In this document: in pieces, positions 6,421 through 24,304 of the stretch | Layout of the letters: every line of letters begins with the position of its first letter | Numbering within the stretch: the stretch's first letter is position 1 | NCBI GenBank assembly: GCA_002483345.1 | Contig: DLHS01000018.1 | Span: 208,638 to 240,637, forward strand | Source: Bacteroidetes bacterium UBA7662 | Lineage (GTDB): Bacteria; Bacteroidota; Bacteroidia; UBA7662 | Direction: 5' to 3' | DNA: 32,000 nucleotides | The notes under the pieces: generated by a model | Database searches by the model: none | Told to the model about the DNA's origin: nothing | What the model saw: only the letters and a program-made list of their open reading frames with translations | Program-made: the position numbers and the translations under genes

Positions 6421-6461
6421 GCTGAAAAACAAAAGCCCTTCTGTTTGCACAAAAGGGCTTT
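6421..6461 (-). terminator. Rho-independent terminator of giant gene 1
   Basis: 9-bp stem aaagccctt (6432-6440) / aagggcttt (6453-6461) with a 12-nt loop. On the minus strand it is followed by ttttgtttttc. It lies 20 bp after the stop at 6481. Confidence 0.6.
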
Positions 6462-6480: not shown

Positions 6481-9400
6481 TCAGTGGCGAACCATGATTT
6501 TGCCGCTGGCAGATTTTGTTTTACTGCTGATCTGGTAACTGTACCAGCCATTTGGCCATACCTGGGTATCAATTTCCACCGAATGGGCATCTACTGCCAT
6601 TTCGCGGCGGTAAACTTCTCTTCCAAGGGCATCAAAAATTTTCAGGATGGTTTCACTGTGTAATGCTTCTTCCCAGGTCATGAAAACCTTAGCATCGGCA
6701 GGATTGGGATAGGTGGTTACAGCCAGTTTACCAGGGTTGTATACACTTCCTCCGAAAAGCACTTCCTTGCACAGACTATCCTGTGATCCTGATATCCAGA
6801 CACAGACCACATTGCTTTGCAAGGCGAAAAGAATCGGCAAGCTGAAGGTAAATTGAATTGAATCGCCGGCTGGAATAGGCTGCGATACAGTATTGGCAAT
6901 AATCGGGCTGCTGCCGTTCAGGTTGTAGGTCACTTCGAACGGGGTGGTCGATGTATTTCCGCTGTTACCAAGCATAATGCGCACGTCATGTGGGCCTATA
7001 CCGACCGGATGGCTTTCGGGGCTGATGATGCGCTTTATAAACGGCGCACTCAGCGTGCCTCTGATCAGAATAGAGTCACTCAGGGTACAAGTGCCCCTGT
7101 TCACTTCCAGTTGAATGTCACGATCCTGGGTAATGGCAATTGACAATGTTTTACCTGTTCCCAGTATATTACTGCCATCCAGCCATGCTACACTATCGAG
7201 TGGATCTTCCATGATAAAGGCACCATTCATAATCGCAAAACCAGCAGAAGTGCCGTTCGGCTGATTAAACCGCAGTCCGTGATAAACCGTCAGATTGCTG
7301 TCGGTAGCTGCAACCGTGGTAGCAGACTGTCCGGCAGACAGCAGGAGCGCCGCTGAATCAGCTGTTTCAATTTCAAACATATATCGTCTGCCTTTCATCA
7401 GCATGACCGGTGTTTCGAAGTTAACCCGGCTGTACCCATTAATATCCGGCAAGGCACCGGGTTTAACGACAGCGGTGACCAGTTTGCCCCCATTAAAACC
7501 GGGTGCATAAAGGTTGCCATAACGGACCGTGACAGAAGTACGGCGACCAAGACGGACATCCAGGGCGCTTACGATTCCGGTCCGTTTGGCATCCACCTCA
7601 AACCGCAGTTTCTGTCCGTTCTCTCCACCACCTGCCGACACCTCCAGTCTGCTATCGTACATGAAGCCATCCAGCAATACCACCGTTCCTCCGTTAGAAA
7701 TAGTTCTGTCCGGCCCCAAAACCGGTTTGGTAGCCCCATCCACATAACGAAACAAGGCACTGGTATCGGCATTGCCCAATATGCTGCTGACAACTGCCTG
7801 TAATTCTATTTCTTCGCCCCAGTTTGCCGCAGGAACGGTAGCCAGAAATGCCCCTGCTGCAGGGCTGAAAGTGGCTGTCACCGAACGTGGTCCGGTAGGG
7901 GTACGGTATGCTACAGAAGCGTTGGCAACGGCCGTAGGGTTTGGCACATAGATGGCCACGCTATGTGTAATCGGTGTACAATTATCTCCTGGGGTTACAT
8001 CCACACCGGCAATCAGTGCATTGGCCGGTTCTTCCAGATGTAAATCGTCGATGGCAAACCCTTCCCCTTGAATGTTATTGGCATTGCTGAAGAAATTAAT
8101 CCTGAAAATGACACTGCTGTTACCACGCAAGGCTCCCAGAGACATGCGTGCTTCGAGCCAGTTGGTGCCACTTTGATTACCGGTCCATACAGGCTGTCCA
8201 TGAGAAACAACCACACTGTCTGCATTGTACCAGCTACTGCCTGAGCCCACTATACCCAGCACCTGCCAGCTCTGTCCGCCGTCGGTAGAATAGGTAACAT
8301 TGGCCCCAGCGTTCACAGTCATGTAGGCACGATACCGGAAGCTCAGTTCAGGGCGAACGGCATTGGTAAAGTCAAAACAAGGGCTTTGCAACCATGAACG
8401 TTCTTCAAAATGGTAGTTACCGCTTAGATTGGTCGCCCATATCTGTGTTCCGGCTGTTGCTGAATTGATGAGGGTAGCTGTTGGCACACCCCTTTCCCAA
8501 CTGCTGTTTCTGCCTCCTGCGTACCAGTCACCGGATGTTTCAAAACTATTTGCATAAGGCATGGAAGCTGCAGCAAGGTAAACTACTGTTTTGCGGATAG
8601 TGTCCAGTTCATATTCGGTATCTGACCCGAGGCTTGTATTCACCTGAAGCAAATAAGCGGTATTGGGTGTATTGAATCCCAGTGGCAAACTAAATATAGC
8701 CGTATCCGTTTCACCGGGCTGAACCGCTGAAGCAGGTGTGTGGGTAAGATTAAGTACTGTTCCCTGATCTATCCGGACCTCCACAGGAATAGCTGCCAGT
8801 GCATTTAAACCGTCATTCCTCAGCAAAATTTTCAGATCAGTATTACTACCGAATGAACAGGCATCGGCAGGAGACAGGATTGCTGCCACTGATGGGTCTT
8901 CGAGCGGATATTCCGCAAACCGGATGTCATCGATGGCGTAATCTCCTTCAAAACCGGCACCACGTTCTACAACAAAACTAATGCGGGTAGCATTGGCTGG
9001 TAAAAGCATCCGGTGCCGTTTCCAGGGTTCACGGCTGTAAAATTGTTGCTGACCGCGTAAGGTATCCAGTGGTAACCAGGCCGGTCCTGAGGTCTGATAA
9101 AACAATTGAAGTTCGTAAATATCTGCCCCGTAGGCATGGTACCAGAACTCCAGCATCGGATGGGTCAATGCTGCCAAATCCAGACAAGGCGAAACAAGCT
9201 CGGCGGTAGAGCCTGCCGAACCATTGGAAGATTCCACATAGAGATAACGGCCACTACCGCTTCGGGTAGTATGGTCCGCATCAGGGCCTGTACTTCCTGT
9301 AGAAGTAGGACCTGCCTGGCTGAACCAACGGAAAGTACCGGCACTGGAAGTCCAGCCATTTTCAAAGGCCGGCAAACCTGGATTAACCGACTCAAAATTT

Positions 9401-12162
9401 TCGACGGTTGGAAATTGATTGATGCGTTCATTGGCCACAACTACCCCCAGGGTATCGTTGCCTGCATTAAAATCATGCTGATCCAGATAAAACCGGAAAC
9501 GATAAACGCCCCCGTTGAATAAATTGGGTCGGGTTTGTAAACTGATGACTTTACTGCTGTTAGCCAAAATGGTATCCTGAATTGTTTCAACTCCCAGAAG
9601 TTGATTATTCATATAAACATTCAGGGATGCACCATAAACCGGGTCGGTACCATAATTTCTCAGACGCAACTGCAACAGTTGATTCGTGTCAAGTCCGCAG
9701 TTGGTAACCGGACTTACCAGACTGTCGATCGCCAGGTCGATAGCGGGAGCTGTGAATTCATACGCTCCTATATCCGGAGTCGTTATGCTGCGCACCTGGC
9801 CGGCAATATCTTCCCCCAGCCAACTCAAGGCTATTCCTTTGTCATCGATCTGCGGAGAGGTAGGCATAGGATCGGACAAGCTGGAAAAAACCGGATTCAG
9901 GTTACTTCCAACCGTATCAAAACCAAAGGTTGAACGCCAGACCTGTATAGAATCATAATCAGCGACGGGGCTGTTTACCCGGAACAACGGTCTGTTCGCG
10001 CCGATGATGAAATAATTATTGTTTTGAATGTTTGCTTTCGTAAATATTTCAGGAATACTGACAGTAAACGCTCTGAAACCGGCTGGCATACCTGTGGTTC
10101 CGTTAGGATATGCCGTGATTATGTTATTGAATACAATCAGACTGTCAATAGCAGGATTAGTTGCTGAGCCACCGGAAATGTAGAATGCTGCACAGGTAGT
10201 ACTCGTAGAAGCCGAGTTAACCCCTATCAGTACCGTATTATTCACGATTTCCAGGTAATCTCTCGGGTTTGGAGGCGAAGTTGTACTGCTTTGTACCGCC
10301 GTAAAAGTTAATCCTGAGAGAATGCCCGTGGTGCTACTCATGCTGGGCGATTGGAAAGCAGCAATATAATTGTTGTAAACCCTGTTAGACGCGGAACTGC
10401 TTCCGTTGGCGTCATATATAAAAATCGGATAACGTGAAATACCGCCTGTGATACGGTTGTTGTACAATTGCAGACGGGTTAATCCTCTGACCTGAATACC
10501 CGATCCTGAGGTGGTAGTGCCGTTAAAATCACGGACAAGATTATTTCTGACTACCAGAGAATCCTGATTGGTAAAATATATACCATCAATTTTATAGGCT
10601 GTAAGCTCATTGTCCTCCACCACATTCAGATAGGGATAAGGCAAGCCTCCTTCTCCATAAACAGGATGAGCAAATCCATTGAAATAATTCCCCTTTATCA
10701 GATTATTACCTGATGAGGTAATACCAAGCGCCCTGTTGAAGTCTTCAACGGCTCCCAATGAATCAATAAAAGAGCATTCCGTTATTTCATTGAACCCAGC
10801 TCCTCCCTTGAGATGCAATACATAGGTATCGCTGGTATTGGGAAGTACGTTGCGTACAAAGGTCAGTTTTTGGAGCTTTACATAATCCGCGCCATTTAAA
10901 GCCATGTTCTCGGAAGGTAAAACAGCGACATTGTTATATATCCGGACTGCTCCCGGCGCCTGAGCGGCACCACTGATGGTTACCACCTTCCCTGGCCCTG
11001 CTCCCGGAATGGCTGACAGTTCAAACGGCCCCGTGTAGTTTCCAGCTGCCAGGTCGAGATTTACGGCTCCCAGAACCCCGCCACAACTCACCGCCTCCAA
11101 AGCTGCCTGAAGAGTTGTAAAATCGGATGAAGGAGTGCCTACCGTATAAGTACCTGTTGGTATTGCCAGACAAAAATTGCGCTGTATACTGTCATTGGCA
11201 GTGTTCTGATCCGGTCCTTGTCCATTGACACTGCTGATCCAGGCACGAATCTCAACAGCTCCTGAGGCTGGCATGGTAACAGGGTTCAGAAAGGTAAATT
11301 GGGCTCCTGTGGCGGGAGCCAGATTCCCTGTCCAATTGTAGCTCATAGGAGTACCATTGTTCAGGCTTATATTAACCGTTGCGTCAGTGATTGCATTTAC
11401 ACCCTGATTGAACACATCGAGCACCGGTAATTGTATACTTCCTGAAGCAACCGGTGGCTGTGGTGAAATAAGCGCATCGATTCTAAGATCTCTTTGCAAA
11501 GGCACAGAATAGTAAATACGGACGTTTGGTCTCTTTTTTCCATCACTTGTCGTGTTATTCAGAACCGCATTGAAGGATGTTGAACCGGTTACCCCTACTA
11601 TCATGTCCTGCGTACCATTGGTAACATACCAACTGAATTTAGCCGTTCCATATGGGGAACTCCCTCCGATCTGATTCTCAGTCGCTATTTCCAGTCCGCC
11701 TCCTGTATAAGTAAAAGGAGTATTCAAATTAAACTGCACCCAACCCGGGACACCAGGTATGGTTGTATTGCTGTTCTGATATACCAGGGTATGCGTCGAT
11801 AAAATACTTGTCCAGGCAGTAGTGGTAGGCAAGGGTGGTGTCTGAGAAGAATTCGCCATATACAGACTCAGCGTCAATGGAGAGGCAGGCACTGTGGCGC
11901 CAGCGTTGTGTTTTTCAAATGCAATGGCGGTAATCGTGGCCCCGGCAGGAATACCAAGTGCCGAAAGCTCTCCAGCCGTCAAAAGCATATTCCCTCTGTT
12001 TGAGCGCGTCCCGGAGTTGGAACTGGCCCGGTAAACCGGTACAAAGGCACTTGCTGTACCCGTCACAGTATCGGTTCCTGTACCAACCTGAATAAAAGTC
12101 TGACCACTAACTTCAGAACAGGCCACACAAAACAGCAGCCACAGCATAAACAATCTTCTCAT
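6481..12162 (-). CDS. Giant (1893 aa) secreted multidomain T9SS cargo protein: N-domain, CARDB-like x4, right-handed beta-helix, MAM, Asp-box jelly-roll, unassigned region, T9SS CTD
   Basis: The track ORF start 12183 is a TTG; the ATG at 12162 gives the signal peptide MRRLFMLWLLFCVACSEVSGQ. ORF-numbered modules follow. CARDB-like modules start with RDLRIDALISP (231), IDLAIDSLVSP (815), PSVAAILSP (1097) and KRIISPE (1717), and end in xNDS/xNDT. The beta-helix region spans ~340-810 (repeated NN[RT][IV] rungs; ends TTPDIGAYEF). A strong MAM consensus covers 925-1090 (FENGW..FRW..GPDADHT..GSGRYLYVESS..AELVSPCLDL..LEFWYHAYG..YAIDDIRF). A second jelly-roll at 1208-1385 carries the Asp-box STDGGQSW. 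The CTD is YPNPADAKVF...GWYSYQIS...IMVRH. Confidence 0.85.
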   Translation of the reverse strand: MRRLFMLWLLFCVACSEVSGQTFIQVGTGTDTVTGTASAFVPVYRASSNSGTRSNRGNMLLTAGELSALGIPAGATITAIAFEKHNAGATVPASPLTLSLYMANSSQTPPLPTTTAWTSILSTHTLVYQNSNTTIPGVPGWVQFNLNTPFTYTGGGLEIATENQIGGSSPYGTAKFSWYVTNGTQDMIVGVTGSTSFNAVLNNTTSDGKKRPNVRIYYSVPLQRDLRIDALISPQPPVASGSIQLPVLDVFNQGVNAITDATVNISLNNGTPMSYNWTGNLAPATGAQFTFLNPVTMPASGAVEIRAWISSVNGQGPDQNTANDSIQRNFCLAIPTGTYTVGTPSSDFTTLQAALEAVSCGGVLGAVNLDLAAGNYTGPFELSAIPGAGPGKVVTISGAAQAPGAVRIYNNVAVLPSENMALNGADYVKLQKLTFVRNVLPNTSDTYVLHLKGGAGFNEITECSFIDSLGAVEDFNRALGITSSGNNLIKGNYFNGFAHPVYGEGGLPYPYLNVVEDNELTAYKIDGIYFTNQDSLVVRNNLVRDFNGTTTSGSGIQVRGLTRLQLYNNRITGGISRYPIFIYDANGSSSASNRVYNNYIAAFQSPSMSSTTGILSGLTFTAVQSSTTSPPNPRDYLEIVNNTVLIGVNSASTSTTCAAFYISGGSATNPAIDSLIVFNNIITAYPNGTTGMPAGFRAFTVSIPEIFTKANIQNNNYFIIGANRPLFRVNSPVADYDSIQVWRSTFGFDTVGSNLNPVFSSLSDPMPTSPQIDDKGIALSWLGEDIAGQVRSITTPDIGAYEFTAPAIDLAIDSLVSPVTNCGLDTNQLLQLRLRNYGTDPVYGASLNVYMNNQLLGVETIQDTILANSSKVISLQTRPNLFNGGVYRFRFYLDQHDFNAGNDTLGVVVANERINQFPTVENFESVNPGLPAFENGWTSSAGTFRWFSQAGPTSTGSTGPDADHTTRSGSGRYLYVESSNGSAGSTAELVSPCLDLAALTHPMLEFWYHAYGADIYELQLFYQTSGPAWLPLDTLRGQQQFYSREPWKRHRMLLPANATRISFVVERGAGFEGDYAIDDIRFAEYPLEDPSVAAILSPADACSFGSNTDLKILLRNDGLNALAAIPVEVRIDQGTVLNLTHTPASAVQPGETDTAIFSLPLGFNTPNTAYLLQVNTSLGSDTEYELDTIRKTVVYLAAASMPYANSFETSGDWYAGGRNSSWERGVPTATLINSATAGTQIWATNLSGNYHFEERSWLQSPCFDFTNAVRPELSFRYRAYMTVNAGANVTYSTDGGQSWQVLGIVGSGSSWYNADSVVVSHGQPVWTGNQSGTNWLEARMSLGALRGNSSVIFRINFFSNANNIQGEGFAIDDLHLEEPANALIAGVDVTPGDNCTPITHSVAIYVPNPTAVANASVAYRTPTGPRSVTATFSPAAGAFLATVPAANWGEEIELQAVVSSILGNADTSALFRYVDGATKPVLGPDRTISNGGTVVLLDGFMYDSRLEVSAGGGENGQKLRFEVDAKRTGIVSALDVRLGRRTSVTVRYGNLYAPGFNGGKLVTAVVKPGALPDINGYSRVNFETPVMLMKGRRYMFEIETADSAALLLSAGQSATTVAATDSNLTVYHGLRFNQPNGTSAGFAIMNGAFIMEDPLDSVAWLDGSNILGTGKTLSIAITQDRDIQLEVNRGTCTLSDSILIRGTLSAPFIKRIISPESHPVGIGPHDVRIMLGNSGNTSTTPFEVTYNLNGSSPIIANTVSQPIPAGDSIQFTFSLPILFALQSNVVCVWISGSQDSLCKEVLFGGSVYNPGKLAVTTYPNPADAKVFMTWEEALHSETILKIFDALGREVYRREMAVDAHSVEIDTQVWPNGWYSYQISSKTKSASGKIMVRH
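6484..6720 (-). other. Type-A T9SS C-terminal sorting domain (Por_Secre_tail-like) of giant gene 1
   Basis: Last ~79 aa: LAVTTYPNPADAKVFMTWEE..ILKIFDALGREVYRREM....VEIDTQVWPNGWYSYQISSKTKSASGKIMVRH. The pattern is YPNPA, then hydrophobic strands, D..GR.V, then G.Y.Y.... Confidence 0.8.
8908..9411 (-). other. MAM (meprin/A5/mu-like) domain inside giant gene 1
   Basis: ORF aa ~925-1092: FPTVENFES..FENGWTSSAGTFRWFSQAGPTSTGSTGPDADHTTRSGSGRYLYVESSNGSAGSTAELVSPCLDL..PMLEFWYHAYGADIYELQLFY..WKRHRMLLP..RISFVVERGAGFEGDYAIDDIRF. This follows the MAM consensus almost position for position. Confidence 0.75.
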
Positions 12163-12271
12163 AAAGAACTTTTGGATTTGCAATTTAGAGCGTAAAAATT
12201 TTAAATAAGATTAAACTTGACACGAACCTATTGGAATCATTCCAAACCTTAAAACAATGACAGATAATGTC

Positions 12272-12300
12272 AAAAAAAAAGAGGCCCCGAAGGGCCTCTT
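12272..12300 (-). terminator. Rho-independent terminator of giant gene 2
   Basis: Perfect 9-bp stem aagaggccc (12279-12287) / gggcctctt (12292-12300) with loop cgaa. On the minus strand it is followed by a T9 run (complement of 12272-12280). It lies 20 bp after the stop at 12320. Confidence 0.8.
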
Positions 12301-12319
12301 ACTTTTCAGCTTATCTGAA

Positions 12320-15300
12320 TCAATGTTTGACAATAAGATTTCCGTGCTGTACCTGATCTGCAGCAATGAAGCGGTAGCTATAAATACCCGCTGCCCAGTT
12401 TTCAGTACGTACACTCTGAACATTGCCATTTTTCCTGTCAACAGCAATGGAGGCCACTACCCGTCCCAGTTTATCATGGATTTCGAGCAAACCCTTGCCG
12501 GCAAACTCATTGAACTCAAAGTTCACAAACGATTCAGCCGGATTAGGATATACATTACCAATCAAACGATTGTTCAGCAACAGATTCTCCACACTTACCG
12601 TAGATACAAGACTTACGCATGAAGTATCGTTTGAACGAACCAACTCATTCGGCATACCGGTCGTGTTGGCACACAATGCAACCGGACCGGCTGTAGTTGG
12701 CGTCCACGATACCGTAAAGGTATGTTGCAGTGAATCTCCCGGATTAATGGTTTGGGTAATGGAGTTGGTAACGATAGATACCCCGCCATTGATTCTGTAC
12801 TCAACATCAAATCCCGAAGCAGGAACAGTTCCGTAGTTCTTCACAATCACCGTCACAGGAAGGGCAGTAGCACCATCCAATACTGTAGATGTAGTAGGAC
12901 TTACAATTCTGCTCACCCCGATATCAGGATTCAGCTGAAGTGGATTTACCGTTACTGTAACCGTATCCGATTTAGTACAAACAGAGTCTGTAACCGTCAC
13001 AATATAGGTAGTTGTGGTTGCAGGGCTCACTTTCAGGGTATCGCTGCTACCCACAACCGTTCCTCCCAATGTTGTCCACTGCGCGGTAAGCGCAGAACCA
13101 TAGTACACTGTGCCAACCCACAAACGAGGGCTGCAACAAACTGTCCAGTTAGTACAGAAACCTTCTCCGTTTGTAATCGACAAATCAGTATTCGAAAGGC
13201 TGGTTGTTCCTGTAGCATACTGAGAATGGTATTGCAGATAAACACCATAGGTTGCACCGGCAGGAATTGCAAAACCACTCGTCAGATTCAAACGCATGAT
13301 TCCTGCTGCTGTCGGATTAATCGTATAGGTTCCTTCCAGTGTCCAGGCAGCCTGATTCGCCTGCTGGCCATTCTTGGTACCGGAAATGTAGTAAACAGAA
13401 ACAGTCTGGCTGCCTGTATTGAACGGATTGATATCAAATCCTGAAATGTACAAGGAACTTGTCGCTGTGGTAAGATCGAACATGAAACCACCGGCACAGT
13501 TGGTACCTGTTGCCGCAGCTGCATTACCCAGCGAGCCAGCAGCACCAAAACCGGTGCTAAGAACCAAGGTAGCCGTATCGCCCTGAATGATAGTCGTGTC
13601 GTTGCCGGCACTTACTGTCAGGTAATCATCCTTGTAACGACCTGCAGCAAAGTTTGGCGCAAAGTTACCAAGGCTATCCCTGGCAATGATGGTCACGATT
13701 ACAGCCTGATTCGCTGCAGGAGCAGCAGGTATGACACCTGTCCAGGTACCATTCAAAGAAGTACCTGCCGTTCTGGTCAGGAGAATAACAGGTTGTTGTA
13801 CCCCGGCTACGGTATAGCTGGCAGAAACACTGTCAATACCACGACCACCGTTGTTATCACGAGCATAAACCGTTACTGTACGGGCAGTTGCCACACACAA
13901 ATCACCTGAAGGACTGATGTCAACAGAGTCGATGCTTGGCGGGAAAATATCCGGCAAAGCAATACCTGCAAACTCATAAGCACCCATATCAGGGGCTGTA
14001 CCAGTGCCGGCAGGACGATTGTTTCCTGCATAGTCTGTATTCGGTGTGCCCAGGCTGCTGATTACGACTGCACCGGACTCAATACCCGATGTAGTGCCTG
14101 CAGGAATATGAAGATCTGTAATGCTCACAAACGGTGGCAAACTGCGTCCTACCGGCGGAACCGACAGGTTATCGTTGTTCGCGTTACCAACCGATGAAAT
14201 CAGCTTCCAGTCTGCAACCGTAGCATAGTTACCACTACCAGCTGTTGTACCTACCCTGCCCACAAAACATTGTGCATTGGTATCAACATGATACGCGTTG
14301 TTGTTCAGCGTAAGATTCGCAAAGTTGTATGCCGCAACAACCCATACCGCGTTAAACGACGAAACAGGTGTTGTAGAGGTAGCATTCATCGCAAAGATGT
14401 TGTTGCGCACATCGCCTGTAACAGCAGTAGCTGTTACTCCGAAGGCCGCACCAGCTGCACCAGCTGTTGTCACATTCGTGTACGTACCATACAGATAAAC
14501 ACTGTTGTAATGAACACTATGCGCCAATCCACCTGCCAGGCGTATACCAAAGGCATTGTAAAGCTGGCTGGTGTTCGAGTAATTAACTGTTTTCAGGTCG
14601 TAGATAAGGTTGTTGTCTATCGTAACCGAATCACCCGACACTACATTGATACCATAAGCACCCCAGCCTCCGGTGTTCAGGTTCTTAACGCCCCAAACCG
14701 TGTTGCGGTTGATACGGACTCCACGAAGTGAGGTACCTCCCACTTCTATCGCCGCCTGGGTAGTGGCTGTAGGACTCACCAGATTAAAGACCTCGTTGTC
14801 ACGAATACTCGCACCAACAAAGTTCTGAACATCAATACCACGGAAAATAACGAAAGATGCCGTGTCAAGAGAGCCAATACTGTTGTTCATCACCTGGATG
14901 TTCATGCCTGGGTTCGCAACCGTGTTGCGTGCATAAATACCATAGTAGGCTCTGGTAACCACGTTGTTCTGAATCGTCAGATCCAACATCGAATCGCCCG
15001 TTCCGGTAGTAGCTATCGCTGCTCCCTGGGCTGTAATACCAAATGTGGAAGTAACCGTATTCGTACCACCCACTATCTGCAGGTTCTTGAGTGTCGTATG
15101 CTCTACCGTCTCTCCCAGTATACTCCGCAACCAGACCACAGCACTGGTCGCAGCCGACGAAGTCGAACGAAGTGTCAGGTTACGGCTCGAAGTACCATTG
15201 TTTGAACCATCCAGAGTAAACCACTTAACACCCCGCAGCACAAACAAACCTGTGCTACCAGGGGCCGAACCTTCTACAACGACATTCGAACGCGTAACAT

Positions 15301-18244: not shown

Positions 18245-18395
18245 AAATGGAATTTGGACTTGTAATTTCAGGATATATCTCCCCTGAAAAGCCCGCCTGT
18301 CCATTAAAATGAAATTAAAATATTAAATCATGATTAAGAATTTACAATAATCAGTCAATGGTTTTAACTTTTTTGCTAAAAAAATTGAATAGAGT

Positions 18396-18432
18396 AAAAA
18401 AGCTGCCCCGGAAAATCCGGGACAGCTTTTTT
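18396..18432 (-). terminator. Rho-independent terminator of giant gene 3
   Basis: 11-bp stem with one mismatch: agctgccccgg (18401-18411) / ccgggacagct (18417-18427), loop aaaat. It is flanked by A5 and T5; on the minus strand the hairpin is followed by tttttt. It lies 23 bp after the stop at 18455. Confidence 0.75.
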
Positions 18433-18454
18433 AAACTCAAGGCTCTGCCTGTCT

Positions 18455-21400
18455 CTATTTCTTCACTACCAGGTTGCCATGCTGAACCTGATCGGAAGCG
18501 ATGAAGCGGTAACTGTACATCCCGGCCGCCCATGTTTCGGTACGTACCGACTGAACAGGGCCATTCGCACGGTCAACAGCCACCGTAGCAACCACCCGAC
18601 CCAGCTTATCATGGATTTCAAGGGTACCCTTGCCCTGGAATTCGTTGAACTCAAAGTTCACAAACGACTCTGCAGGATTCGGATAAACCTTACCAATCAA
18701 ACGGTTACTAATCGCCAACTCATCTACTCCTACGGTTGACACAATAGTTGCGCAGGCAGTATCATTGGCCCGGTTAACTTCATTCGGCAAACCGGTTGTA
18801 TTAGCACAGATAGAGAAAGTAGCACCGGTTGCAGGTGGTGTCCATGCCAGTGTAAAGGTGTGCATCAAAGAATCTCCGGGTGCGATGGTCTGGGTAATTG
18901 AGTTTGTTACAATTGAAAGACCTCCGTTAACCCTGTATTCCACGTCGAAACCTGAAGCTGCAACACCTCCGTAGTTTTTAATCCGGGCTGTTACATCGAT
19001 AGGAGAATTGGTATTGATGGTAGAACCCGAAGCAGGAGCTGCAATGAGTGACACCCCGATATCAGGAGGGCTGGCACCGACAACGACAGTAGCTGTAACG
19101 CTTACATTACACCTTCCGTCACTCAGGGTTGCCGTATAGGTGAAGGTACCGTTGGAAGTGAACGGACCAGCTACCAGCGTGTCGCCGTTGGTGGGAGGAA
19201 TTGTATTCCAGACAATGCTACCGGCACTGGTACTCATGGTCATACCTGTGTTCAACGAACCAACTGACATCAGCGAAGTGGCTGATGAAAGCACCCAGTC
19301 TGCCGCGTCATTGTTATCGCTGTTAGTACGGATAACCCCGGCAAGTCCGCTGGATGAAGCCAAATTACCACTCCAGTCAGCTGCAGTAACACCACTGGCA
19401 ACATCGAATGTATACCCGTTGGTAGCAAGCGCATCTACAATTGTACCGGCAGCATCTTTCATAATATAGCCCGTAGCAGAACCGGAAGAAATACCATCCG
19501 TCGTGCCACCTGTATTAAAGTAGGCGTTGGCCGGATCATCTGTTCCTGTGCCAAGGTGAAGGACAAGCGTTCCATTACCCGGAACAATAGCGCCTGCAGG
19601 GAAAGTATAATTACGGGCACCTGCTCCTACCATATCAAAAGTAAAGCCTGTCAAATCAGCAGGGCTTGAACCCAGGTTGCTGATCTCGACCAAATCCTCA
19701 CCGGAAACATGCGCAGGATAAGTAGGGGTCTGACCGGTACCGGTTCTGTACTGTACAACCTCTGTGATTTTAACATTGGCAATGCCGGTAGCAAAAGCAC
19801 GTAATACCACGGTATCCCCTATGAGCGCTGTTCTGTTTAAAGGGAATACGGTTAAACCCAGATAGTTGTCTTTATACGAAATCGTACCGGAAGTATCTGT
19901 CAGGCCAATCGAATCAACCACTGTTACAAAATAACGATTCCGGACAGCAGGCGAGCTTACAGGAATGGTTGCAGTCCAGTTGCTTGAAATACCCACCCTG
20001 GTCATCGGAATTGCTGTAAACGTTCCGGAACCAACCAGATCATGGTGCAGATTTACAGTGGTGAGAGAACGGAACTGTGTGATATTGGCAGTAATCTCAC
20101 GGGTAGCATTGATACAGCTGTCGGTAGCTGTCGTTACTGTCTGAATGATAGGATCTGTCGGCAGATCAACCCGGAAAGAGTCAATGCCGATACCTTCATT
20201 TTCACCGCTTCCGTCAGAACCGAATAAGAAACGGAAACGTACGCTTGCCTGGTTGGCAAGTGCAGGAATGGTGAGTTCAGCCGGCAACCAGCCACCTGAG
20301 CCAGAACCATTGGTATTTGCCCACACCGGAAGACCATTACTTGCACCTACAGAAGCTGCGCTATACCAGTTAACACCAGCTCCAACTGCCCCTGCAACTG
20401 ACCAGGTGTTACCACCATCAGTAGTATATTGAAGGGTAACGCCATCCCATCCTTCTTCTGTTTCATACCAGATTCCAAACCGGACCCTGACATTACTCAA
20501 GGCACTTAAATCGAAACATGGAGAAGTGATGTGTGACTGTTCATTAGAATTATAGTCACCCGTCAGGTTAGTCACCCAGGCGTTGCTGTCGCTATATGCC
20601 GGTGAGGCACCCCCTGAGGTGGTTGGGATACCCAGAGCCCAGCTGGAAGCTGTTCCACCTGCTATCCATCCACCTGCACCGTTTTCCCAGCTTTCTGTAT
20701 AAGGGAATGAGCTGACAATAGGTATGTTGTTAAAAGTTGTTCTTGCGGTATCGTTGCTGAAATCACCATCACCGGCACGGCCATGGTAGGCAACAATGTT
20801 ATAAACACCGATAGTACTTACGTTCACGAGGGTATTAAAATTGTAAATTATGGTATCACCAGGGTTGATAGGACCGGCAAAGGTCTCTGAAACCGGTGTG
20901 CCCCCGTTCAGGGTGTAAATCAACGGGAAGGCTGATTGTGCAGCTGTTCCATTGTTTATCAGGCGAACCGTAACTGTATCATTGGTGAGACCACAACCTT
21001 CGGTTGGGCCCAGTACCCTGTTAACTGACAAGTCAACCGGTGGCGGCAGGAAGACGCGGAAATTATCCAGGTCAAAATAAACATCAAGACCACTCGTCTG
21101 CTCAAAAACAACCCTCAGGTAAATCTCATCGCCTGTATAGGCATTGAGGTTGATCCGGAAATAAGTGAACTGATCTGAAGCGACATAGTTCTGATCCGTA
21201 ATTGCTGATACCGTCTGGAAACTTACACCACAATCGGTAGAAACCTGAACTTTGATGGTATCGCCCACTCCCAAAGGAAGTGGTGTACCCGGCCAGCTCC
21301 AGCCGCTCCATTCGGTCATTTTATATGCAAACTCAAAAATGTACCCACTGGATGGGATTGGACCAAAAAATGGCAGTGTCACACTGGAAGCATTTACACC

Positions 21401-24304
21401 ATAAACATTGTAACGCAAACCTGCTGTCTGATCCAAACCTGTTACAGTATTGAAACCCATGTTTGATACAAAACCGGCAGGAAGGCTGGTAAGGCTGTTA
21501 AAGTTCTGTGTATATGGAACTGCCGTTGGTGTCACGAAAGATACGGTCCTCGTTCCGCCATTGTTCAGCAAATTGCCATCCGTCGGAGCAACCAGATCAG
21601 CTGTCAGCGTATAAGTGCCGGGGGTGATAAAGTTTACTGCCGATGACACCAGATAAGTCCTTGAGCTGTCTACCCTCAGTGAGTCACTGGTTATATTCAG
21701 GGTAAATGCCTGAGCAATCGGACCGGCGATGTTCACACTGATGGTTGAGTTATTAGCTGCAAAGTTGTAAGTCTGAAAGCCTACATTCTTAAGGGTTACC
21801 CGAATACTATGGTTGCTGTCAGCACAGGCTGAATTGGATATCACAGCTGTAATACCCAGGTCAAATGGCGAAGGCGTAAATTCATAGGCGCCCATATCCG
21901 GAGCTGTAGCACTGCGGGTTGTACCCAAAATATCAGTGGAAACAGCTGGTATAGGCGTTCCGAGGTCGTTGCTCAAAAATGCCGTAGGAATCGCCAGGAT
22001 TGGAGAACTGAAGCCAGGGTTACGGCTGACAGAGTTAGCATCTCTTGTGGATGCAGTTGTCCAGTCTGCCAAAGTCAGATAATCAGTGGCATCCACCTGA
22101 ACCAAAGCATTGGTGAGGGCAGTACCATTGGACTCGTCATACAAATAGAAATTATTGTAATTCGAAACCGTCACATTCTTAAGAGTGTCATTACTGAAAT
22201 ACAAACCACGCATGCCGGAAGCAGCGTTGGCGCCGGTAGGCTGATAGGCTACCATCATATTGTTCATGATGGTGGCACCATTCCAGGCCGGTGTTGTGTT
22301 CGAACCACCTGTCATAAACAGAGGCGCCATGGTGGTGGTTGCCCCTGCCAATACATTGGCTCCGATATTTACAGAATTATGCAATACCGACACACGGTCG
22401 AGCGGATTTACGGGGGCTGTAGCGGTTGCACTGAACGAACCGCTTACATAAATACCGTACAAAGAGGTAAAGGCACTGGTATGTATGAATGACTGTCCTG
22501 AAACAGCATTATTTACAATAAGATTTTCAAGACCTGTGCTATCATTCGCATTGAAAACATAAATACCTGCATTCCCGATGGTTCCTGAAACAACGTTCTG
22601 GGAAATATTGAAGCCGATAACCCGCGATAAATAAATCCCGTATCCAAAAGTTGACGCAGCAGTACTGACCGTATTGCTGTTTACATTCATCATCGACTGA
22701 TTTACACCATAAATACCATAACGGTAGTTGGTCAGTGTATTATTCAGCACCTGGTTGAAGCTTTCATAACCATTGTTGGCAGTAGGTCCTGTCAGGTAAA
22801 TGGTATAATAGAAACCATTGAAGCTGTTTCCTGAAATGTTCAGATTATCTGAATTATCAGCAAAAATACCATAGTTGCCGCTTGAAGTAGAAGACAATGG
22901 TGTCTGGTCATCAAATACACAACTTACGACGGTGCCAAAATTAGATTCTCCGCCAAAACGTATCTGATAAAATGAACCTGCCGGAGCATTCAGCGTCCGT
23001 CTGAAAGTCAGGAGAGAGAACGTTACATTGGGTGTATTGGTCAGATTAAAAATACTCTTATTCGTAGCAGCGGTTGCTGTATCATGTACCAGAATTACAT
23101 CTGCTGCATTGCTGGTGGCCGAGGTAAAAGTGATGCTGTTGGGGGCAGCTGCACCCAATATATTTTGCAGTACATAACTGCCATAATAAACGCCCGGTTG
23201 AATCTGAAAAGTTACCGGAGCAGATATTCCGCAGTTTGTAAGGTCGCTGACTGCTGCAGCGATGGTCGTATAGTTACCGGTAGCACCTATGGTGTAGGTA
23301 CCGAAAAGTCCCGTACAGATATTGGATACCAGGGTATCGTTACTGGTGTTGTTGTCCGCACCCAGTCCATTGGCATTGGAAAGCCAGGTTTTGATGGTGT
23401 AGGCACCTGGAGTCGTAATGTTCAGGGGTGTCGAGAAGGAGTAATCAAATGTTTGTCCTGCAGCCAAAGGTGTCGGCGGTGAAACTGCCGTAACTGATAC
23501 CGGAGGGTTGTTGTTCAATTGATACGACAAATTAAAGTTCGCAATCGGGTCTGCAGCCACGTTTACAACCCGGGCGGTCACCTGATTGTTACCTATGATA
23601 AGGTTAACCGGTGAAACCAAACTACCCAAACGGGCATCCCGACCTGATGGAGGCAGGATACCAATACGCATATTAGGGCGCTGATTCGCTACGGCCAATA
23701 CAGGGCCAAAAGCATTGTCTGTTGCATAGCTACAGTTCCCGTTTCCGTCACTCCTGTAGTTGTAACTGGATACAAAACTTGTAGTAGACTGATTAACAGA
23801 AGCATTGTTGGTATAAGTCGTATTGTTATGACATATTTCAATGATAATGTTACTTACACCATCCCATTGAAATGGGGTAGTAAAAGTATGGGTATTCCAG
23901 CCCAGGACTTCCTGATAACTTGCAACTGTAAATACCTGTGTTAAACCAGTCACGCCAGAAGTCGGAGCTGTTGCCGGAAACTCTGTGAGCGTGGTGTGCC
24001 CTATTTTAATGGTAAAATTCGTCAGTGCTGTTGAATTTGCACCAACGTAAGGATTCACAGCTGAAACATCAAATGCCAGCGACTGAATCATACCAGGGGT
24101 TGCACCAACCGAACTAAGCTCAGAAGCCCGGATGATGTACTGATCTGCCGAGCCCCAATAATAGTTACCATAAGGTGCCGGATAGCTCGTGGATGAGTTG
24201 GTTACCGTGCCAGTGCCAATTTCGTATATCACCTGTGCCGAACTGATGCCGGAGGCCAATACCATTAACAATAACAAGGACCATGAACGTAGATTTTTCA
24301 ACAT
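18455..24304 (-). CDS. Giant (1949 aa) secreted multidomain T9SS cargo protein: N-domain, CARDB-like x4, beta-helix, two jelly-roll (MAM-like/Asp-box) modules, Ig-like, lamin-tail-like domain, T9SS CTD
   Basis: The track start 24310 is a TTG; the ATG at 24304 gives the signal peptide MLKNLRSWSLLLLMVLASGISSAQ. CARDB-like modules start at GRDARLGSLVSP (223), FDLGITAVIS (816), VDLSVNRVLGP (1092) and PDIGVSLIAAP (1749). The beta-helix spans ~335-811 and ends APDMGAYEF. One jelly-roll carries VQVSTDCGVSF (1021). A second jelly-roll carries the Asp-box TTDGGNTW (1296). An LTD-like module spans ~1512-1680. The CTD is VYPNPAESFVNFEFNEF...MYSYRFIASDQVQHGNLVVKK. Confidence 0.85.
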   Translation of the reverse strand: MLKNLRSWSLLLLMVLASGISSAQVIYEIGTGTVTNSSTSYPAPYGNYYWGSADQYIIRASELSSVGATPGMIQSLAFDVSAVNPYVGANSTALTNFTIKIGHTTLTEFPATAPTSGVTGLTQVFTVASYQEVLGWNTHTFTTPFQWDGVSNIIIEICHNNTTYTNNASVNQSTTSFVSSYNYRSDGNGNCSYATDNAFGPVLAVANQRPNMRIGILPPSGRDARLGSLVSPVNLIIGNNQVTARVVNVAADPIANFNLSYQLNNNPPVSVTAVSPPTPLAAGQTFDYSFSTPLNITTPGAYTIKTWLSNANGLGADNNTSNDTLVSNICTGLFGTYTIGATGNYTTIAAAVSDLTNCGISAPVTFQIQPGVYYGSYVLQNILGAAAPNSITFTSATSNAADVILVHDTATAATNKSIFNLTNTPNVTFSLLTFRRTLNAPAGSFYQIRFGGESNFGTVVSCVFDDQTPLSSTSSGNYGIFADNSDNLNISGNSFNGFYYTIYLTGPTANNGYESFNQVLNNTLTNYRYGIYGVNQSMMNVNSNTVSTAASTFGYGIYLSRVIGFNISQNVVSGTIGNAGIYVFNANDSTGLENLIVNNAVSGQSFIHTSAFTSLYGIYVSGSFSATATAPVNPLDRVSVLHNSVNIGANVLAGATTTMAPLFMTGGSNTTPAWNGATIMNNMMVAYQPTGANAASGMRGLYFSNDTLKNVTVSNYNNFYLYDESNGTALTNALVQVDATDYLTLADWTTASTRDANSVSRNPGFSSPILAIPTAFLSNDLGTPIPAVSTDILGTTRSATAPDMGAYEFTPSPFDLGITAVISNSACADSNHSIRVTLKNVGFQTYNFAANNSTISVNIAGPIAQAFTLNITSDSLRVDSSRTYLVSSAVNFITPGTYTLTADLVAPTDGNLLNNGGTRTVSFVTPTAVPYTQNFNSLTSLPAGFVSNMGFNTVTGLDQTAGLRYNVYGVNASSVTLPFFGPIPSSGYIFEFAYKMTEWSGWSWPGTPLPLGVGDTIKVQVSTDCGVSFQTVSAITDQNYVASDQFTYFRINLNAYTGDEIYLRVVFEQTSGLDVYFDLDNFRVFLPPPVDLSVNRVLGPTEGCGLTNDTVTVRLINNGTAAQSAFPLIYTLNGGTPVSETFAGPINPGDTIIYNFNTLVNVSTIGVYNIVAYHGRAGDGDFSNDTARTTFNNIPIVSSFPYTESWENGAGGWIAGGTASSWALGIPTTSGGASPAYSDSNAWVTNLTGDYNSNEQSHITSPCFDLSALSNVRVRFGIWYETEEGWDGVTLQYTTDGGNTWSVAGAVGAGVNWYSAASVGASNGLPVWANTNGSGSGGWLPAELTIPALANQASVRFRFLFGSDGSGENEGIGIDSFRVDLPTDPIIQTVTTATDSCINATREITANITQFRSLTTVNLHHDLVGSGTFTAIPMTRVGISSNWTATIPVSSPAVRNRYFVTVVDSIGLTDTSGTISYKDNYLGLTVFPLNRTALIGDTVVLRAFATGIANVKITEVVQYRTGTGQTPTYPAHVSGEDLVEISNLGSSPADLTGFTFDMVGAGARNYTFPAGAIVPGNGTLVLHLGTGTDDPANAYFNTGGTTDGISSGSATGYIMKDAAGTIVDALATNGYTFDVASGVTAADWSGNLASSSGLAGVIRTNSDNNDAADWVLSSATSLMSVGSLNTGMTMSTSAGSIVWNTIPPTNGDTLVAGPFTSNGTFTYTATLSDGRCNVSVTATVVVGASPPDIGVSLIAAPASGSTINTNSPIDVTARIKNYGGVAASGFDVEYRVNGGLSIVTNSITQTIAPGDSLMHTFTLAWTPPATGATFSICANTTGLPNEVNRANDTACATIVSTVGVDELAISNRLIGKVYPNPAESFVNFEFNEFQGKGTLEIHDKLGRVVATVAVDRANGPVQSVRTETWAAGMYSYRFIASDQVQHGNLVVKK
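18458..18703 (-). other. Type-A T9SS C-terminal sorting domain of giant gene 3
   Basis: NRLIGKVYPNPAESFVNFEFNEFQGKGTLEIHDKLGRVVATVAVDRANGPVQSVRTETWAAGMYSYRFIASDQVQHGNLVVKK. Confidence 0.8.
19271..19777 (-). other. Lamin-tail-domain (LTD)-like module inside giant gene 3
   Basis: ORF aa ~1512-1680: NVKITEVVQYRTGTGQ...SGEDLVEISNLGSSPADLTGFTFDMVGAGARNYTFPAGAIVPGNGTLVLHLGTG...GYIMKDAAGTIVDAL. This follows the LTD pattern I.E(v/i)...(ew)vEl.N.g...vdLsGw.l......ytfp.g..l.pg..lvv........l.L.d..G.vvD.v. Confidence 0.55.

What the first reader, a model, noticed from the sequence alone, without database searches (positions are those of the whole stretch)
6481..24304. Tandem array of three ~1900-2000-aa paralogous T9SS cargo genes of unknown function, occupying 56% of the window
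Three consecutive same-strand ORFs (1893, 1974 and 1949 aa) are each a separate unit. Each has its own cleavable signal peptide, its own AT-rich upstream gap and its own hairpin terminator (6421-6461, 12272-12300, 18396-18432).

All three follow one scaffold: N-terminal beta-domain, CARDB-like module, ~480-aa right-handed beta-helix, an alternating series of CARDB-like, jelly-roll and Ig-like modules, a terminal CARDB-like module, and a type-A T9SS CTD.

I see no recognisable catalytic motif (no protease, glycosidase, nuclease or toxin signature). The composition is extremely T/S/N/G/A-rich and poor in K/E. The array is embedded among core genes (thyA, pyrC, rpoC) with no mobility genes, so it looks like a resident, expanding surface-protein family rather than an island. 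Whether these are adhesins, gliding-surface proteins, polysaccharide-binding proteins or S-layer-like proteins is open.
Basis: partly seen in the sequence, partly recalled or inferred. Interest (0 to 1): 0.7.

Follow-up and report, generated by a model that had tools for sequence, protein, structure and literature searches.

The report
Three giant T9SS surface-protein paralogs
Three neighbouring genes of an uncultured Bacteroidota bacterium each encode a ~200-kDa modular protein, exported by the type IX secretion system and most likely a surface binding protein. The genes are real and conserved in relatives, but they belong to a very large, already catalogued class of uncharacterised secreted proteins.

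Summary
Three minus-strand ORFs (6481-12183, 12320-18304, 18455-24310) are separate units. Each has a signal peptide, an AT-rich upstream gap, a hairpin terminator and a type-A T9SS C-terminal domain above curated cut-offs.

They are old paralogs (27-40% identity, no near-identical DNA). Each type has full-length orthologs at 38-67% identity in other metagenomes.

The array sits in a conserved frame: rpoC-S8 protease-DHOase-like | array | POT-POT-DPP-IV-thyA. Copy number, order and module content vary between relatives.

A and C share one plan: jelly-roll head, CARDB, 480-aa beta-helix, CARDB/MAM-like series, Ig-like modules, CARDB, CTD. B differs: it has another head family and a second beta-helix.

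No catalytic family is detected. Across beta-helix copies only an Asn ladder and a cap motif are invariant.

The head domain ("ND1") matches no Pfam or NCBIfam model, yet occurs in about 9,200 representative proteins. Its closest fold matches are phage tail-fibre tip modules and CBMs.

Best reading: glycosylated, C-terminally anchored binding proteins. A glycan-cleaving role is not excluded.

Verdict: ordinary in kind, a new member of a known class. Moderate-low interest.

The parts
6481..12183 (-). Gene A: 1900-aa (probably 1893-aa, ATG at 12162) T9SS type-A cargo protein
   Evidence: ORF. Pfam MAM 83 bits, CARDB, Beta_helix, Por_Secre_tail. TIGR04183 36 bits. Full-length orthologs at 56-60% and 38-40% identity.
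12320..18304 (-). Gene B: 1994-aa (probably 1974-aa, ATG at 18244) T9SS type-A cargo protein with two beta-helices
   Evidence: ORF. Beta_helix, Por_Secre_tail, choice_anchor_Q 36.8 bits at aa 1418-1445. Second helix at aa 933-1448.
18455..24310 (-). Gene C: 1949/1951-aa T9SS type-A cargo protein with LTD
   Evidence: ORF. CARDB, LTD, Por_Secre_tail. Exact database protein P0001. Orthologs at 47-67% identity, always the first gene of the array.
23669..24220 (-). C ND1 head module (aa 29-212): unannotated jelly-roll
   Evidence: Iterated HMM. No Pfam hit. AF2 pLDDT 91.6. Foldseek matches CBM35/CBM6/CBM32-like folds and phage tail tips.
11521..12087 (-). A ND1 head module (aa 33-221), divergent copy (25% identity to C's)
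   Evidence: ND1 HMM, E 1e-22. Alignment A1.
17537..18181 (-). B ND2 head module (aa 42-256), a different family, repeated at aa 1580-1794 (window 12923-13567)
   Evidence: The 'Bu' profile hits both copies, E 2e-57 and 4e-77. No Pfam hit.
21869..23308 (-). C right-handed parallel beta-helix (aa 333-812) with DIxGxxRxxxxPDxGAYE cap
   Evidence: BH HMM. AF2 pLDDT 90.6, pTM 0.91. Foldseek matches GH136, PL6, CE8 and tailspikes at TM 0.3-0.54. Invariant Asn ladder and cap.
9748..11157 (-). A beta-helix (aa 343-812)
   Evidence: Pfam Beta_helix 31.5 bits. BH HMM, E 1.5e-100.
15878..17308 (-). B beta-helix 1 (aa 333-809)
   Evidence: Pfam Beta_helix 30.9 bits. BH HMM, E 1.5e-121.
13961..15508 (-). 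B beta-helix 2 (aa 933-1448). More conserved among B orthologs (44-66% identity, 60-66% in the ten closest) than helix 1 (40-51%)
   Evidence: choice_anchor_Q above cut-off.
8911..9357 (-). A MAM domain (aa 943-1091). A second MAM-like/choice-of-anchor-J module lies at aa 1217-1381 (window 8041-8535)
   Evidence: Pfam MAM, E 2e-23. PDB MAM hits. NF038128, E 1e-5, below cut-off. MAM HMM.
19418..19780 (-). C lamin-tail domain (aa 1509-1629)
   Evidence: Pfam LTD 42.1 bits against a cut-off of 34.3.
21014..21550 (-). C 'Cu' jelly-roll module (aa 919-1097), shared in part with the neighbouring S8 protease
18458..18685 (-). C type-A T9SS CTD (aa 1874-1949). Equivalent CTDs: A at window 6484-6711, B at window 12323-12550
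   Evidence: PF18962 and TIGR04183 above cut-off in all three. YPNPA...GR.V...G.Y.Y motifs.
6432..6461 (-). Terminator hairpin after A
   Evidence: 13-bp stem plus T run.
12279..12300 (-). Terminator hairpin after B
   Evidence: AAGAGGCCC-TTCG-GGGCCTCTT followed by T8.
18396..18432 (-). Terminator hairpin after C
   Evidence: AAAAAGCTGTCCCGG-ATTTT-CCGGGGCAGCTTTTT.

Best explanation
The region holds three anciently diverged paralogous genes. Each is its own transcription unit and encodes a ~200-kDa modular cargo protein of the type IX secretion system.

Route (inferred from the family):
- Sec export with signal-peptide cleavage before a Gln.
- Recognition of the type-A C-terminal domain by the T9SS.
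- Removal of that domain by the PorU sortase.
- Attachment of the new C-terminus to anionic LPS, or release into the medium.

The C-terminus is therefore proximal to the cell. The N-terminal 'head' (jelly-roll ND1 or ND2, then CARDB, then a 480-aa beta-helix) projects outwards on a stalk of CARDB, MAM-like and Ig-like modules.

Most likely function: non-enzymatic, O-glycosylated surface binding proteins (adhesin- or lectin-like), with the three paralogs offering different heads.

The locus is a chromosomal hot-spot between rpoC-S8 protease-DHOase-like and POT-POT-DPP-IV-thyA. Copy number, order and module content change between related genomes.

Shown: genes, modules, paralogy, orthology, synteny and predicted folds. 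Inferred: secretion, anchoring, glycosylation and binding function.
For: - Secretion signals. CTDs are above curated cut-offs and lie at the extreme C-terminus in all three. Signal peptides are present.
- Anchoring precedent. Type-A cargo is anchored through C-terminal glycolipid linkage (PMC7468200). GhpA is a T9SS substrate with an N-terminal distal adhesive module on a C-terminally anchored stalk.
- Module content. Only binding or scaffold modules are detected: CARDB, MAM, LTD, Ig-like. There is no catalytic family hit.
- Beta-helix conservation. Across 27 beta-helix copies only the Asn ladder and the cap D/R/P/G/A/E are invariant. Relatives carry 1-4 helices per protein, which is typical of structural use.
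- Beta-helix relatives by sequence. The profile matches non-enzymatic NosD and an S. pneumoniae cell-wall-anchored surface protein.
- ND1 head. It is a confident jelly-roll. Its best fold match is an uncharacterised phage protein (E 1e-8, TM 0.73). Lower-ranked matches are phage minor-tail and tail-fibre proteins and CBM35/6/32.
- ND1 distribution. It occurs in about 9,220 representative proteins, up to 8 copies each. 6 of 9 short carriers scanned also have T9SS CTDs.
- Glycosylation. The O-glycosylation sequon D[ST][AILVMT] is 2-3 fold enriched over shuffles.
- Locus dynamics. Synteny is conserved and copy number varies.
Against: - No experiment exists on any member of the family.
- The nearest solved folds of the beta-helix are all carbohydrate-active enzymes (GH136, PL6, CE8, tailspikes).
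- Within each ortholog group some Asp/Arg/His residues in the helix body are conserved, so catalysis is not excluded.
- The T9SS machinery itself is not in the window.
- Type-A cargo can be released rather than anchored.
Confidence: 0.55

Rival explanations
1. They are secreted or surface polysaccharide-degrading enzymes. The beta-helix would be a catalytic domain of an undescribed lyase, hydrolase or esterase family. ND1, MAM-like and CARDB modules would serve as carbohydrate-binding accessories, as in other multi-modular T9SS CAZymes.
For: - Every top Foldseek match of the beta-helix is a carbohydrate-active enzyme or a depolymerising tailspike.
- ND1 resembles CBM6/35/32.
- Ortholog-group-specific conserved Asp/Arg/His residues lie in the helix body. 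B's second helix is unusually well conserved.
Against: - TM scores are only 0.2-0.54 with ~10% identity, which reflects the generic fold.
- No charged residue of the helix body is invariant across copies.
- No CAZy-type Pfam or NCBIfam hit, only the generic Beta_helix/NosD.
- No SusC/SusD or other glycan-utilisation genes in the window or in syntenic loci.
- Relatives carry up to four helices per protein.
Confidence: 0.22
2. They are part of a protein- and peptide-foraging surface apparatus. They would capture proteinaceous substrates for the adjacent T9SS-secreted S8 subtilase, feeding DPP-IV and the two POT peptide transporters at the other end of the array.
For: - The S8 protease, DPP-IV and POT genes flank the array in all close relatives examined.
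- The S8 protease shares CARDB and the 'Cu' jelly-roll with protein C.
Against: - The flanking genes are on other strands, behind terminators, and separated from the array by their own gaps.
- In L009 three A-like genes sit in an unrelated context.
- CARDB and MAM-like modules are generic in T9SS cargo.
- There is no direct evidence of co-regulation.
Confidence: 0.1
3. They form a structural surface layer or coat (S-layer-like, protective, or gliding-related) rather than ligand-specific binders.
For: - Cheap, low-charge, Thr/Ser/Asn/Gly/Ala-rich composition and large size.
- Enriched glycosylation sequons.
- Several paralogs per genome.
Against: - SprB and GhpA, the T9SS-exported appendage proteins, are built of dozens of Ig-like repeats, and the SprB repeat family (PF13573) is not among the hits. 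GhpA has PorP/PorE-like partner genes next to it, and no such genes are seen here. CHU_C, Pfam's other T9SS sorting-signal family, scores 14.5 bits against a cut-off of 27, whereas Por_Secre_tail/TIGR04183 (type A) is above cut-off.
- There are no self-assembly repeats.
- Strongly conserved, movable head modules argue for specific recognition.
Confidence: 0.08
4. The long ORFs are assembly artefacts (collapsed or chimeric repeats).
For: The sequence derives from a metagenome.
Against: - The same order and sequences appear in three assemblies.
- Collinear full-length orthologs from other samples exist for C and A. B's counterparts in three related loci are collinear but split or cut by the locus end.
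- DNA repeats are at most 74% identical and there are no tandem repeats.
Confidence: 0.01

Closest known systems
Type-A CTD cargo of the T9SS (e.g. P. gingivalis and T. forsythia surface proteins; TIGR04183/PF18962 family)
   Same: N-terminal Sec signal, C-terminal ~75-aa sorting domain above curated cut-offs, multi-domain beta-rich passenger. The adjacent S8 protease carries the same tail.
   Different: No catalytic or known adhesin passenger domain. Much larger than most characterised type-A cargo. Anchoring versus release is unknown. The organism is uncultured.
GhpA grappling hook and SprB (giant T9SS-exported surface appendage proteins)
   Same: Topology: distal N-terminal adhesive module, stalk of beta-sandwich modules, C-terminal T9SS signal. 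Probable O-glycosylation.
   Different: GhpA and SprB are 5,900-6,500 aa and built of dozens of Ig-like repeats. GhpA has PorP/PorE-like partner genes next to it. Here the proteins are about 1,900 aa, have a type-A CTD, a beta-helix and CARDB/MAM modules, and no partner genes. No sequence homology was detected.
Beta-helix surface adhesins (PDB 3zpp, a cell-wall-anchored S. pneumoniae surface protein; from memory the adhesin PfbA) and autotransporter passengers
   Same: A right-handed parallel beta-helix displayed on the cell surface as a binding or scaffold element. Weak profile match to 3zpp (E 5e-5).
   Different: Different anchoring system (LPXTG or T5SS against T9SS). Similarity is limited to PbH1 repeats.
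Beta-helix carbohydrate-active enzymes (GH136 lacto-N-biosidase, PL6 chondroitinase B/alginate lyase, CE8 pectin methylesterase, phage tailspikes)
   Same: Overall fold of the 480-aa module. Association with CBM-like jelly-rolls.
   Different: TM 0.2-0.54 and ~10% identity. Catalytic residues are not conserved across copies. No family HMM hit.
Phage tail-fibre or minor-tail distal jelly-rolls and CBM6/35/32 modules (galactose-binding-domain-like fold)
   Same: The ND1 fold. Best match is an uncharacterised phage protein, A0A6J5NL19 (TM 0.73, 21% identity). ND1 also sits at the distal end of the molecule.
   Different: ND1 has its own sequence motifs (GTGT..YPxPYGNxYWGxxHQ, GWNxHxF, ExCFxN, QRPNM) and a conserved Cys pair. 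It matches no Pfam or NCBIfam model.

Membership tests
T9SS type-A cargo | C-terminal sorting domain (TIGR04183 / PF18962) at the extreme C-terminus, above the curated cut-off | tested here: met
   TIGR04183: 36.1, 28.5 and 27.3 bits against a cut-off of 23. PF18962: 38.9, 33.4 and 28.7 bits against 27. Each ends within 8 residues of the stop codon.
T9SS type-A cargo | N-terminal Sec signal peptide | tested here: met
   Basic n-region, hydrophobic core, and ...SG|Q or ...SA|Q cleavage context in all three. Judged by eye; no predictor was available.
T9SS type-A cargo | T9SS machinery (SprA/Sov, PorK-N, PorU/V) in the same genome, and T9SS-dependent export | not testable with these tools
   The machinery is not in the 32-kb window or the fetched flanks. 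The only indirect support is the neighbouring S8 protease with the same CTD.
Right-handed parallel beta-helix (PF13229 / pectate-lyase-like fold) | PbH1 repeats detected by HMM, and a predicted beta-helix fold | tested here: met
   PF13229: 31.5 bits (A) and 30.9 bits (B) against a cut-off of 25.9. C matches by family HMM (E 1e-140). AF2 pLDDT 90.6 with about 40 short strands. Foldseek matches beta-helix proteins.
Beta-helix polysaccharide lyases and hydrolases (PL6, PL1, GH28, GH136, CE8) | Family HMM match and conserved catalytic residues in the groove | tested here: not met
   No such Pfam or NCBIfam hit. Invariant columns are the Asn ladder plus the cap only. Group-specific conserved charges exist, so catalysis in a new family is not excluded.
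CARDB (PF07705) | HMM match above the gathering score | tested here: met
   A 39.6 bits and C 44.3 bits against a cut-off of 22.7. B 21.2 bits, just below. The iterated family HMM finds 4, 2 and 4 copies in A, B and C.
MAM (PF00629) / choice-of-anchor J | HMM match above cut-off | tested here: met
   A aa 943-1091: 83.2 bits against 26.4, plus PDB MAM hits. C aa 1210-1385: InhA-like_MAM 28.4 bits against 26.9 when scanned alone. NF038128 in A: 25.7 bits, below the cut-off of 30.
Lamin tail domain (PF00932) | HMM match above cut-off | tested here: met
   C only: 42.1 bits against 34.3. Absent from A and B.
SprB/GhpA-type gliding or grappling adhesins | Long arrays of Ig-like or SprB repeats, and PorP/PorE-like partner genes next to the cargo gene (partner genes; that these adhesins use a type-B CTD is from memory, not tested) | tested here: not met
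   CHU_C, Pfam's other T9SS sorting-signal family, scores 14.5 bits against a cut-off of 27 in A and is absent in B and C. The SprB repeat family (PF13573) is not among the hits. No PorP- or PorE-like gene in the window.
Mobile or genomic island | Integrase or transposase genes, tRNA or direct-repeat borders, atypical composition, absence from relatives | tested here: not met
   No mobility families were found in the flanking ORFs. Gene GC is 0.47-0.49 against 0.48 overall. Both flanks and the array are syntenic in relatives. tRNA genes were not scanned.

The most novel reading that the evidence does not exclude
The array could be a diversity-generating surface-recognition locus. A fixed chromosomal slot would shuffle interchangeable head modules (ND1, ND2, beta-helix) on a common stalk and anchor. 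This would retarget binding, or cleavage, towards the glycans of partner or prey organisms such as phototrophs in the source community. ND1 would then be a new, phage-related family of receptor-binding lectin domains that is specific to T9SS cargo and not yet in the domain databases.
Probability: 0.15. Interest if true: 0.6.

Novelty: new member of a known kind. Interest (0 to 1): 0.3.

Why it matters
Giant T9SS cargo proteins of unknown function are among the largest and most numerous genes in environmental Bacteroidota. They probably set how these cells attach to particles, hosts and phototrophs.

This locus offers three things:
- A clean, syntenically anchored example with three distinct architectures.
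- A module map for all three proteins.
- An unannotated head domain (ND1) present in thousands of such proteins.

Defining ND1's ligand would annotate a large block of 'hypothetical' surface proteins. The array itself adds no new principle.

Tried and rejected
- Exact look-up of B from the internal ATG (1974 aa) found nothing. The database uses the 1994-aa start.
- The single genome-contig scan returned only one distant relative, so the source genome is not among the species representatives. Cluster look-up gave no names or accessions.
- Sequence search of PDB with whole proteins gave only MAM hits for A and noise for B and C. The ND1 profile against PDB sequences found nothing.
- Pfam on the unassigned modules (ND2, Bx, IgX, IgY, Cu, Au) found nothing above cut-off. 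The only hints were DUF4082 at E 0.012-0.02.
- Sigma-70 promoter matches are at chance level: 28 found against 28.6 expected. No Bacteroidetes-type TAnnTTTG motif lies in the three upstream gaps.
- Rfam found no match in the window.
- Recent duplication or gene conversion is rejected. The best DNA repeat is 74% identical over 300 nt at the B and C 3' ends. C orthologs in other genomes are just as similar to B there (about 65% aa), so this reflects constraint, not conversion.
- Homology to GhpA/SprB was considered and rejected on architecture.
- The literature searches found no paper characterising this architecture.
Full report
**1. Observation**

The window carries three consecutive minus-strand ORFs:
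- A: 6481-12183, 1900 aa.
- B: 12320-18304, 1994 aa.
- C: 18455-24310, 1951 aa.

Public gene calls hold exactly these proteins at 1949 aa (P0001), 1994 aa (P0040) and 1900/1893 aa (P0121-P0123).

The same C-B-A order is present on a 139-kb JGI metagenome contig, a Logan assembly of SRR845265 and a 320-kb NCBI contig.

Features of each gene:
- A hairpin plus T-run follows each gene: 6461-6432, 12300-12279 and 18432-18396.
- An AT-rich gap precedes each gene (GC 0.29-0.36 against 0.48).
- The N-termini look like Sec signal peptides that end just before a Gln. I recall this as typical of Bacteroidota signal-peptidase-I substrates; it was not tested here.

No DNA repeat in the array exceeds 74% identity and there are no tandem repeats. 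Assembly collapse is therefore excluded.

**2. Surroundings**

The flanks, in window order:
- thyA, N-terminal part on the minus strand at about 1-422.
- DPP-IV (S9).
- Two POT-family peptide transporters.
- The array.
- A DHOase-like amidohydrolase.
- An S8 subtilase with PKD and a T9SS CTD, on the opposite strand.
- A small OM beta-barrel, DUF6508 and DUF3467.
- The 3' end of rpoC.

No mobility genes are present. The rpoC fragment is at most 77-78% identical to named 'Sphingobacteriia bacterium' MAGs and 70-71% to Mucilaginibacter. The host is therefore an uncultured Bacteroidota lineage.

**3. Paralogy and orthology**

Pairwise BLASTP:
- A-C: 27% over about 1,500 aa.
- B-C: 40% over aa 214-812 and 65% over the last 244 aa.
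- A-B: 33% over aa 231-825.
- B aa 935-1445 aligns to C aa 337-811, so B has a second beta-helix.

Each type has its own orthologs:
- C: 59-67% identity at full length (P0002-P0006) and about 47% (P0007, P0009-P0015).
- A: 56-60% (P0129-P0135) and 38-40% (P0137-P0145), with length held at 1887-1894 aa.
- B: 50-60% identity.

Both flanks are syntenic in relatives. On one side lies rpoC-DUF3467-DUF6508-OMP-(amine oxidase)-S8-(DHOase-like). On the other lies (fasciclin)-POT-POT-DPP-IV-thyA-folA.

The content between the flanks varies:
- L005: C, a B/C/A mosaic, and B.
- L004: C plus a split B-like gene with a C-like tail (aligns to C aa 1230-1724, including its LTD).
- L006: C alone, with a B-like gene 5 kb away.
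- The contig of L007: at least four giants.
- L009: three A-like genes in an unrelated context.

The family is resident and old. The slot is plastic, but a recent expansion is not shown.

**4. Anatomy**

Pfam and NCBIfam give the following:
- Type-A CTD in all three.
- Beta_helix in A and B (above the cut-off); C has only a weak NosD match (16.8 bits) and is assigned by family HMM and the AF2 model.
- CARDB.
- MAM in A (83 bits).
- LTD in C.
- Choice-of-anchor Q: the cap of B's second helix scores above the cut-off (36.8 bits against 25). The caps in A and C score 16.5 and 17.5 bits, below it.

Iterated HMMs built on 128 homologs resolve the module order.

A:
- ND1 33-221
- CARDB 255-331
- beta-helix 343-812
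- CARDB 825-911
- MAM 950-1091
- CARDB 1106-1191
- MAM-like 1217-1381
- IgX 1405-1498
- weak ND2-like 1526-1707
- CARDB 1731-1803
- CTD

C (1949-aa numbering):
- ND1 29-212
- CARDB 239-324
- beta-helix 333-812
- CARDB 825-915
- 'Cu' jelly-roll 919-1097
- CARDB 1100-1186
- MAM-like 1210-1385
- IgX 1399-1496
- LTD 1509-1629
- IgY 1639-1742
- CARDB 1757-1849
- CTD

B:
- ND2 42-256
- CARDB 238-324
- beta-helix 333-809
- Ig-like 'Bx' 831-936
- beta-helix-2 933-1448
- IgX 1473-1575
- ND2+IgY 1580-1794
- CARDB 1803-1894
- CTD

Composition is as described: T+S+N+G+A at 43-50% and K at 0.9-1.7%.

**5. The beta-helix**

An AF2 model built from a 27-sequence alignment is confident (pLDDT 90.6, pTM 0.91).

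Foldseek against PDB finds only generic beta-helix relatives at TM 0.2-0.54 and about 10% identity: GH136 lacto-N-biosidases, chondroitinase B and PL6 lyases, CE8 esterases and tailspikes.

By sequence profile the nearest solved proteins are:
- NosD (E 1e-7).
- An unnamed parallel beta-helix repeat protein, 9rx2.
- A cell-wall-anchored S. pneumoniae surface protein, 3zpp. From memory this is the adhesin PfbA.

Across copies the invariant columns are a ladder of Asn plus the C-terminal cap D-x5-R-x4-P-x2-G-A-x-E.

Within single ortholog groups some Asp/Arg/His residues in the body are conserved. B's second helix is more conserved than its first: 44-66% identity to its orthologs, 60-66% in the ten closest, against 40-51% for helix 1. 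Relatives carry one to four such helices per protein.

This favours a scaffold or binding role but does not exclude a new enzyme family.

**6. The head domain ND1**

The first ~185 residues of C, and more distantly of A, form a module with these motifs:
- GTGT..N...YPxPYGNxYWGxxHQ
- GWNxHxF
- W[DN]GxSN..ExCFxN
- QRPNM
- a conserved Cys pair

It matches nothing in Pfam-A or NCBIfam. Among the homologs it occurs 170 times in 109 proteins, at the N-terminus or internally.

A profile search of 1.84 billion representative proteins finds:
- 9,220 carriers at E <= 1e-3.
- 6,085 carriers at E <= 1e-10.
- Up to eight copies per protein.
- Mostly proteins of 1,000-6,900 aa.

Six of the nine short carriers scanned also have a T9SS CTD.

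AF2 gives a jelly-roll (pLDDT 91.6).
- Matches in PDB are weak: CBM35, CBM6, CBM32, Eph ligand-binding domain and mycobacteriophage tail-tip proteins, with best E 4e-3.
- In the viral predicted-structure library the best hit is an uncharacterised protein of an uncultured Caudovirales phage (E 1e-8, TMq 0.73, rmsd 3.3 A, 21% identity). Minor-tail, collagen-repeat tail-fibre and hemagglutinin-like proteins follow.

ND1 is therefore most plausibly a ligand- or receptor-binding tip module.

**7. Mechanism proposed**

Shown:
- Three independent genes.
- Sec and T9SS signals.
- Module maps and predicted folds.
- Ancient paralogy, orthology and synteny.

Inferred from the family:
- The CTD directs export through the T9SS.
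- The CTD is cleaved and the cargo is linked to anionic LPS (PMC7468200), or released.
- The C-terminus is then cell-proximal and the ND-CARDB-helix head is distal. GhpA is a T9SS-exported appendage protein with the same orientation.

The Bacteroidota O-glycosylation sequon D[ST][AILVMT] is enriched over shuffles, which suggests glycoproteins:
- A: 19 sites against 6.2 +/- 2.4.
- B: 22 sites against 7.4 +/- 2.5.
- C: 14 sites against 8.1 +/- 2.7.

I rate surface binding proteins at about 0.55. The rivals are:
- Glycan-cleaving enzymes of a new family: 0.22.
- Substrate capture for the neighbouring S8, DPP-IV and POT peptide-foraging genes: 0.10. The S8 protease shares CARDB and the Cu jelly-roll with C.
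- Structural coat or gliding role: 0.08.
- Artefact: 0.01.

**8. Comparison and novelty**

These are members of the T9SS type-A cargo class. The CTD and signal-peptide features were tested and met. The machinery could not be tested.

They are not SprB/GhpA-type adhesins. They do not meet the tests for known beta-helix CAZyme families.

All of the homologs found are unnamed or labelled 'hypothetical' or 'T9SS type A sorting domain-containing protein', apart from one evident mis-annotation (P0143, 'archaellum component FlaF').

The array is therefore a new member of a known, uncharacterised kind.

The most useful by-products are the module map, the demonstration of a conserved but plastic chromosomal slot, and the ND1 domain family.

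Interest is moderate-low at 0.3.

Noticed in passing
window 23669-24220 (-) and 11521-12087 (-): ND1 is a ~175-aa jelly-roll domain with no Pfam-A or NCBIfam model. It occurs in about 9,220 representative proteins (6,085 at E<=1e-10), with up to 8 copies per protein. 6 of 9 short carriers scanned also have T9SS CTDs. Its best fold match is an uncharacterised phage protein, A0A6J5NL19 (TM 0.73, 21% identity), followed by phage minor-tail and tail-fibre proteins.
   Followed up: yes
window 17537-18181 (-) and 12923-13567 (-): ND2 is a second unannotated ~200-aa module. It is present twice in B (head and near the C-terminus) and weakly in A (aa 1526-1707). There is no Pfam hit, only a faint DUF4082 similarity in A's copy. 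Its fold was not predicted.
   Followed up: partly
window 26069-29149 (+): The neighbouring 1026-aa S8 subtilase is itself T9SS cargo. It shares CARDB (aa 511-582) and part of the 'Cu' jelly-roll (aa 687-771) with protein C. It is conserved next to the C ortholog in every relative examined.
   Followed up: partly
window 6481-24310 (-): The Bacteroidota O-glycosylation sequon D[ST][AILVMT] is 2-3 fold enriched over shuffles in A and B and mildly in C. The sites are spread over beta-helix, CARDB and Ig-like modules, and several lie at the conserved 'NDT' end of CARDB.
   Followed up: partly
window 1-500: The 5' part of thyA lies on the minus strand ([15 protein letters not shown]...). The listed +strand ORF 99-488 is its antisense shadow and has no family hit.
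   Followed up: yes
window 568-6290: This is a peptide-uptake cluster: DPP-IV (S9) plus two tandem POT-family transporters. It is conserved at this end of the array in relatives. Relatives also have a fasciclin gene between the last giant gene and the POT genes, and an amine-oxidase gene between the OMP and S8 genes. Both are absent here.
   Followed up: partly
window 13961-15508 (-): B's second beta-helix is more conserved among B-type orthologs (44-66% identity, 60-66% in the ten closest) than its first helix (40-51%). This hints that it is the functionally constrained module of that type.
   Followed up: partly
L005 15464-21184; L004 15950-21288; L009 4236-20539: Relatives show module mosaics. 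One is a 1906-aa protein with B-like ends and A-like layout. Another is a B-like gene split into 236 + 1526 aa with a C-like tail (aligns to C aa 1230-1724, including its LTD). There is also a separate tandem of three A-like genes in an unrelated genomic context.
   Followed up: partly
window 29211-30548 (-): A small OM beta-barrel gene, DUF6508 and DUF3467 follow rpoC in the same order in all relatives examined. Their function is unknown.
   Followed up: no
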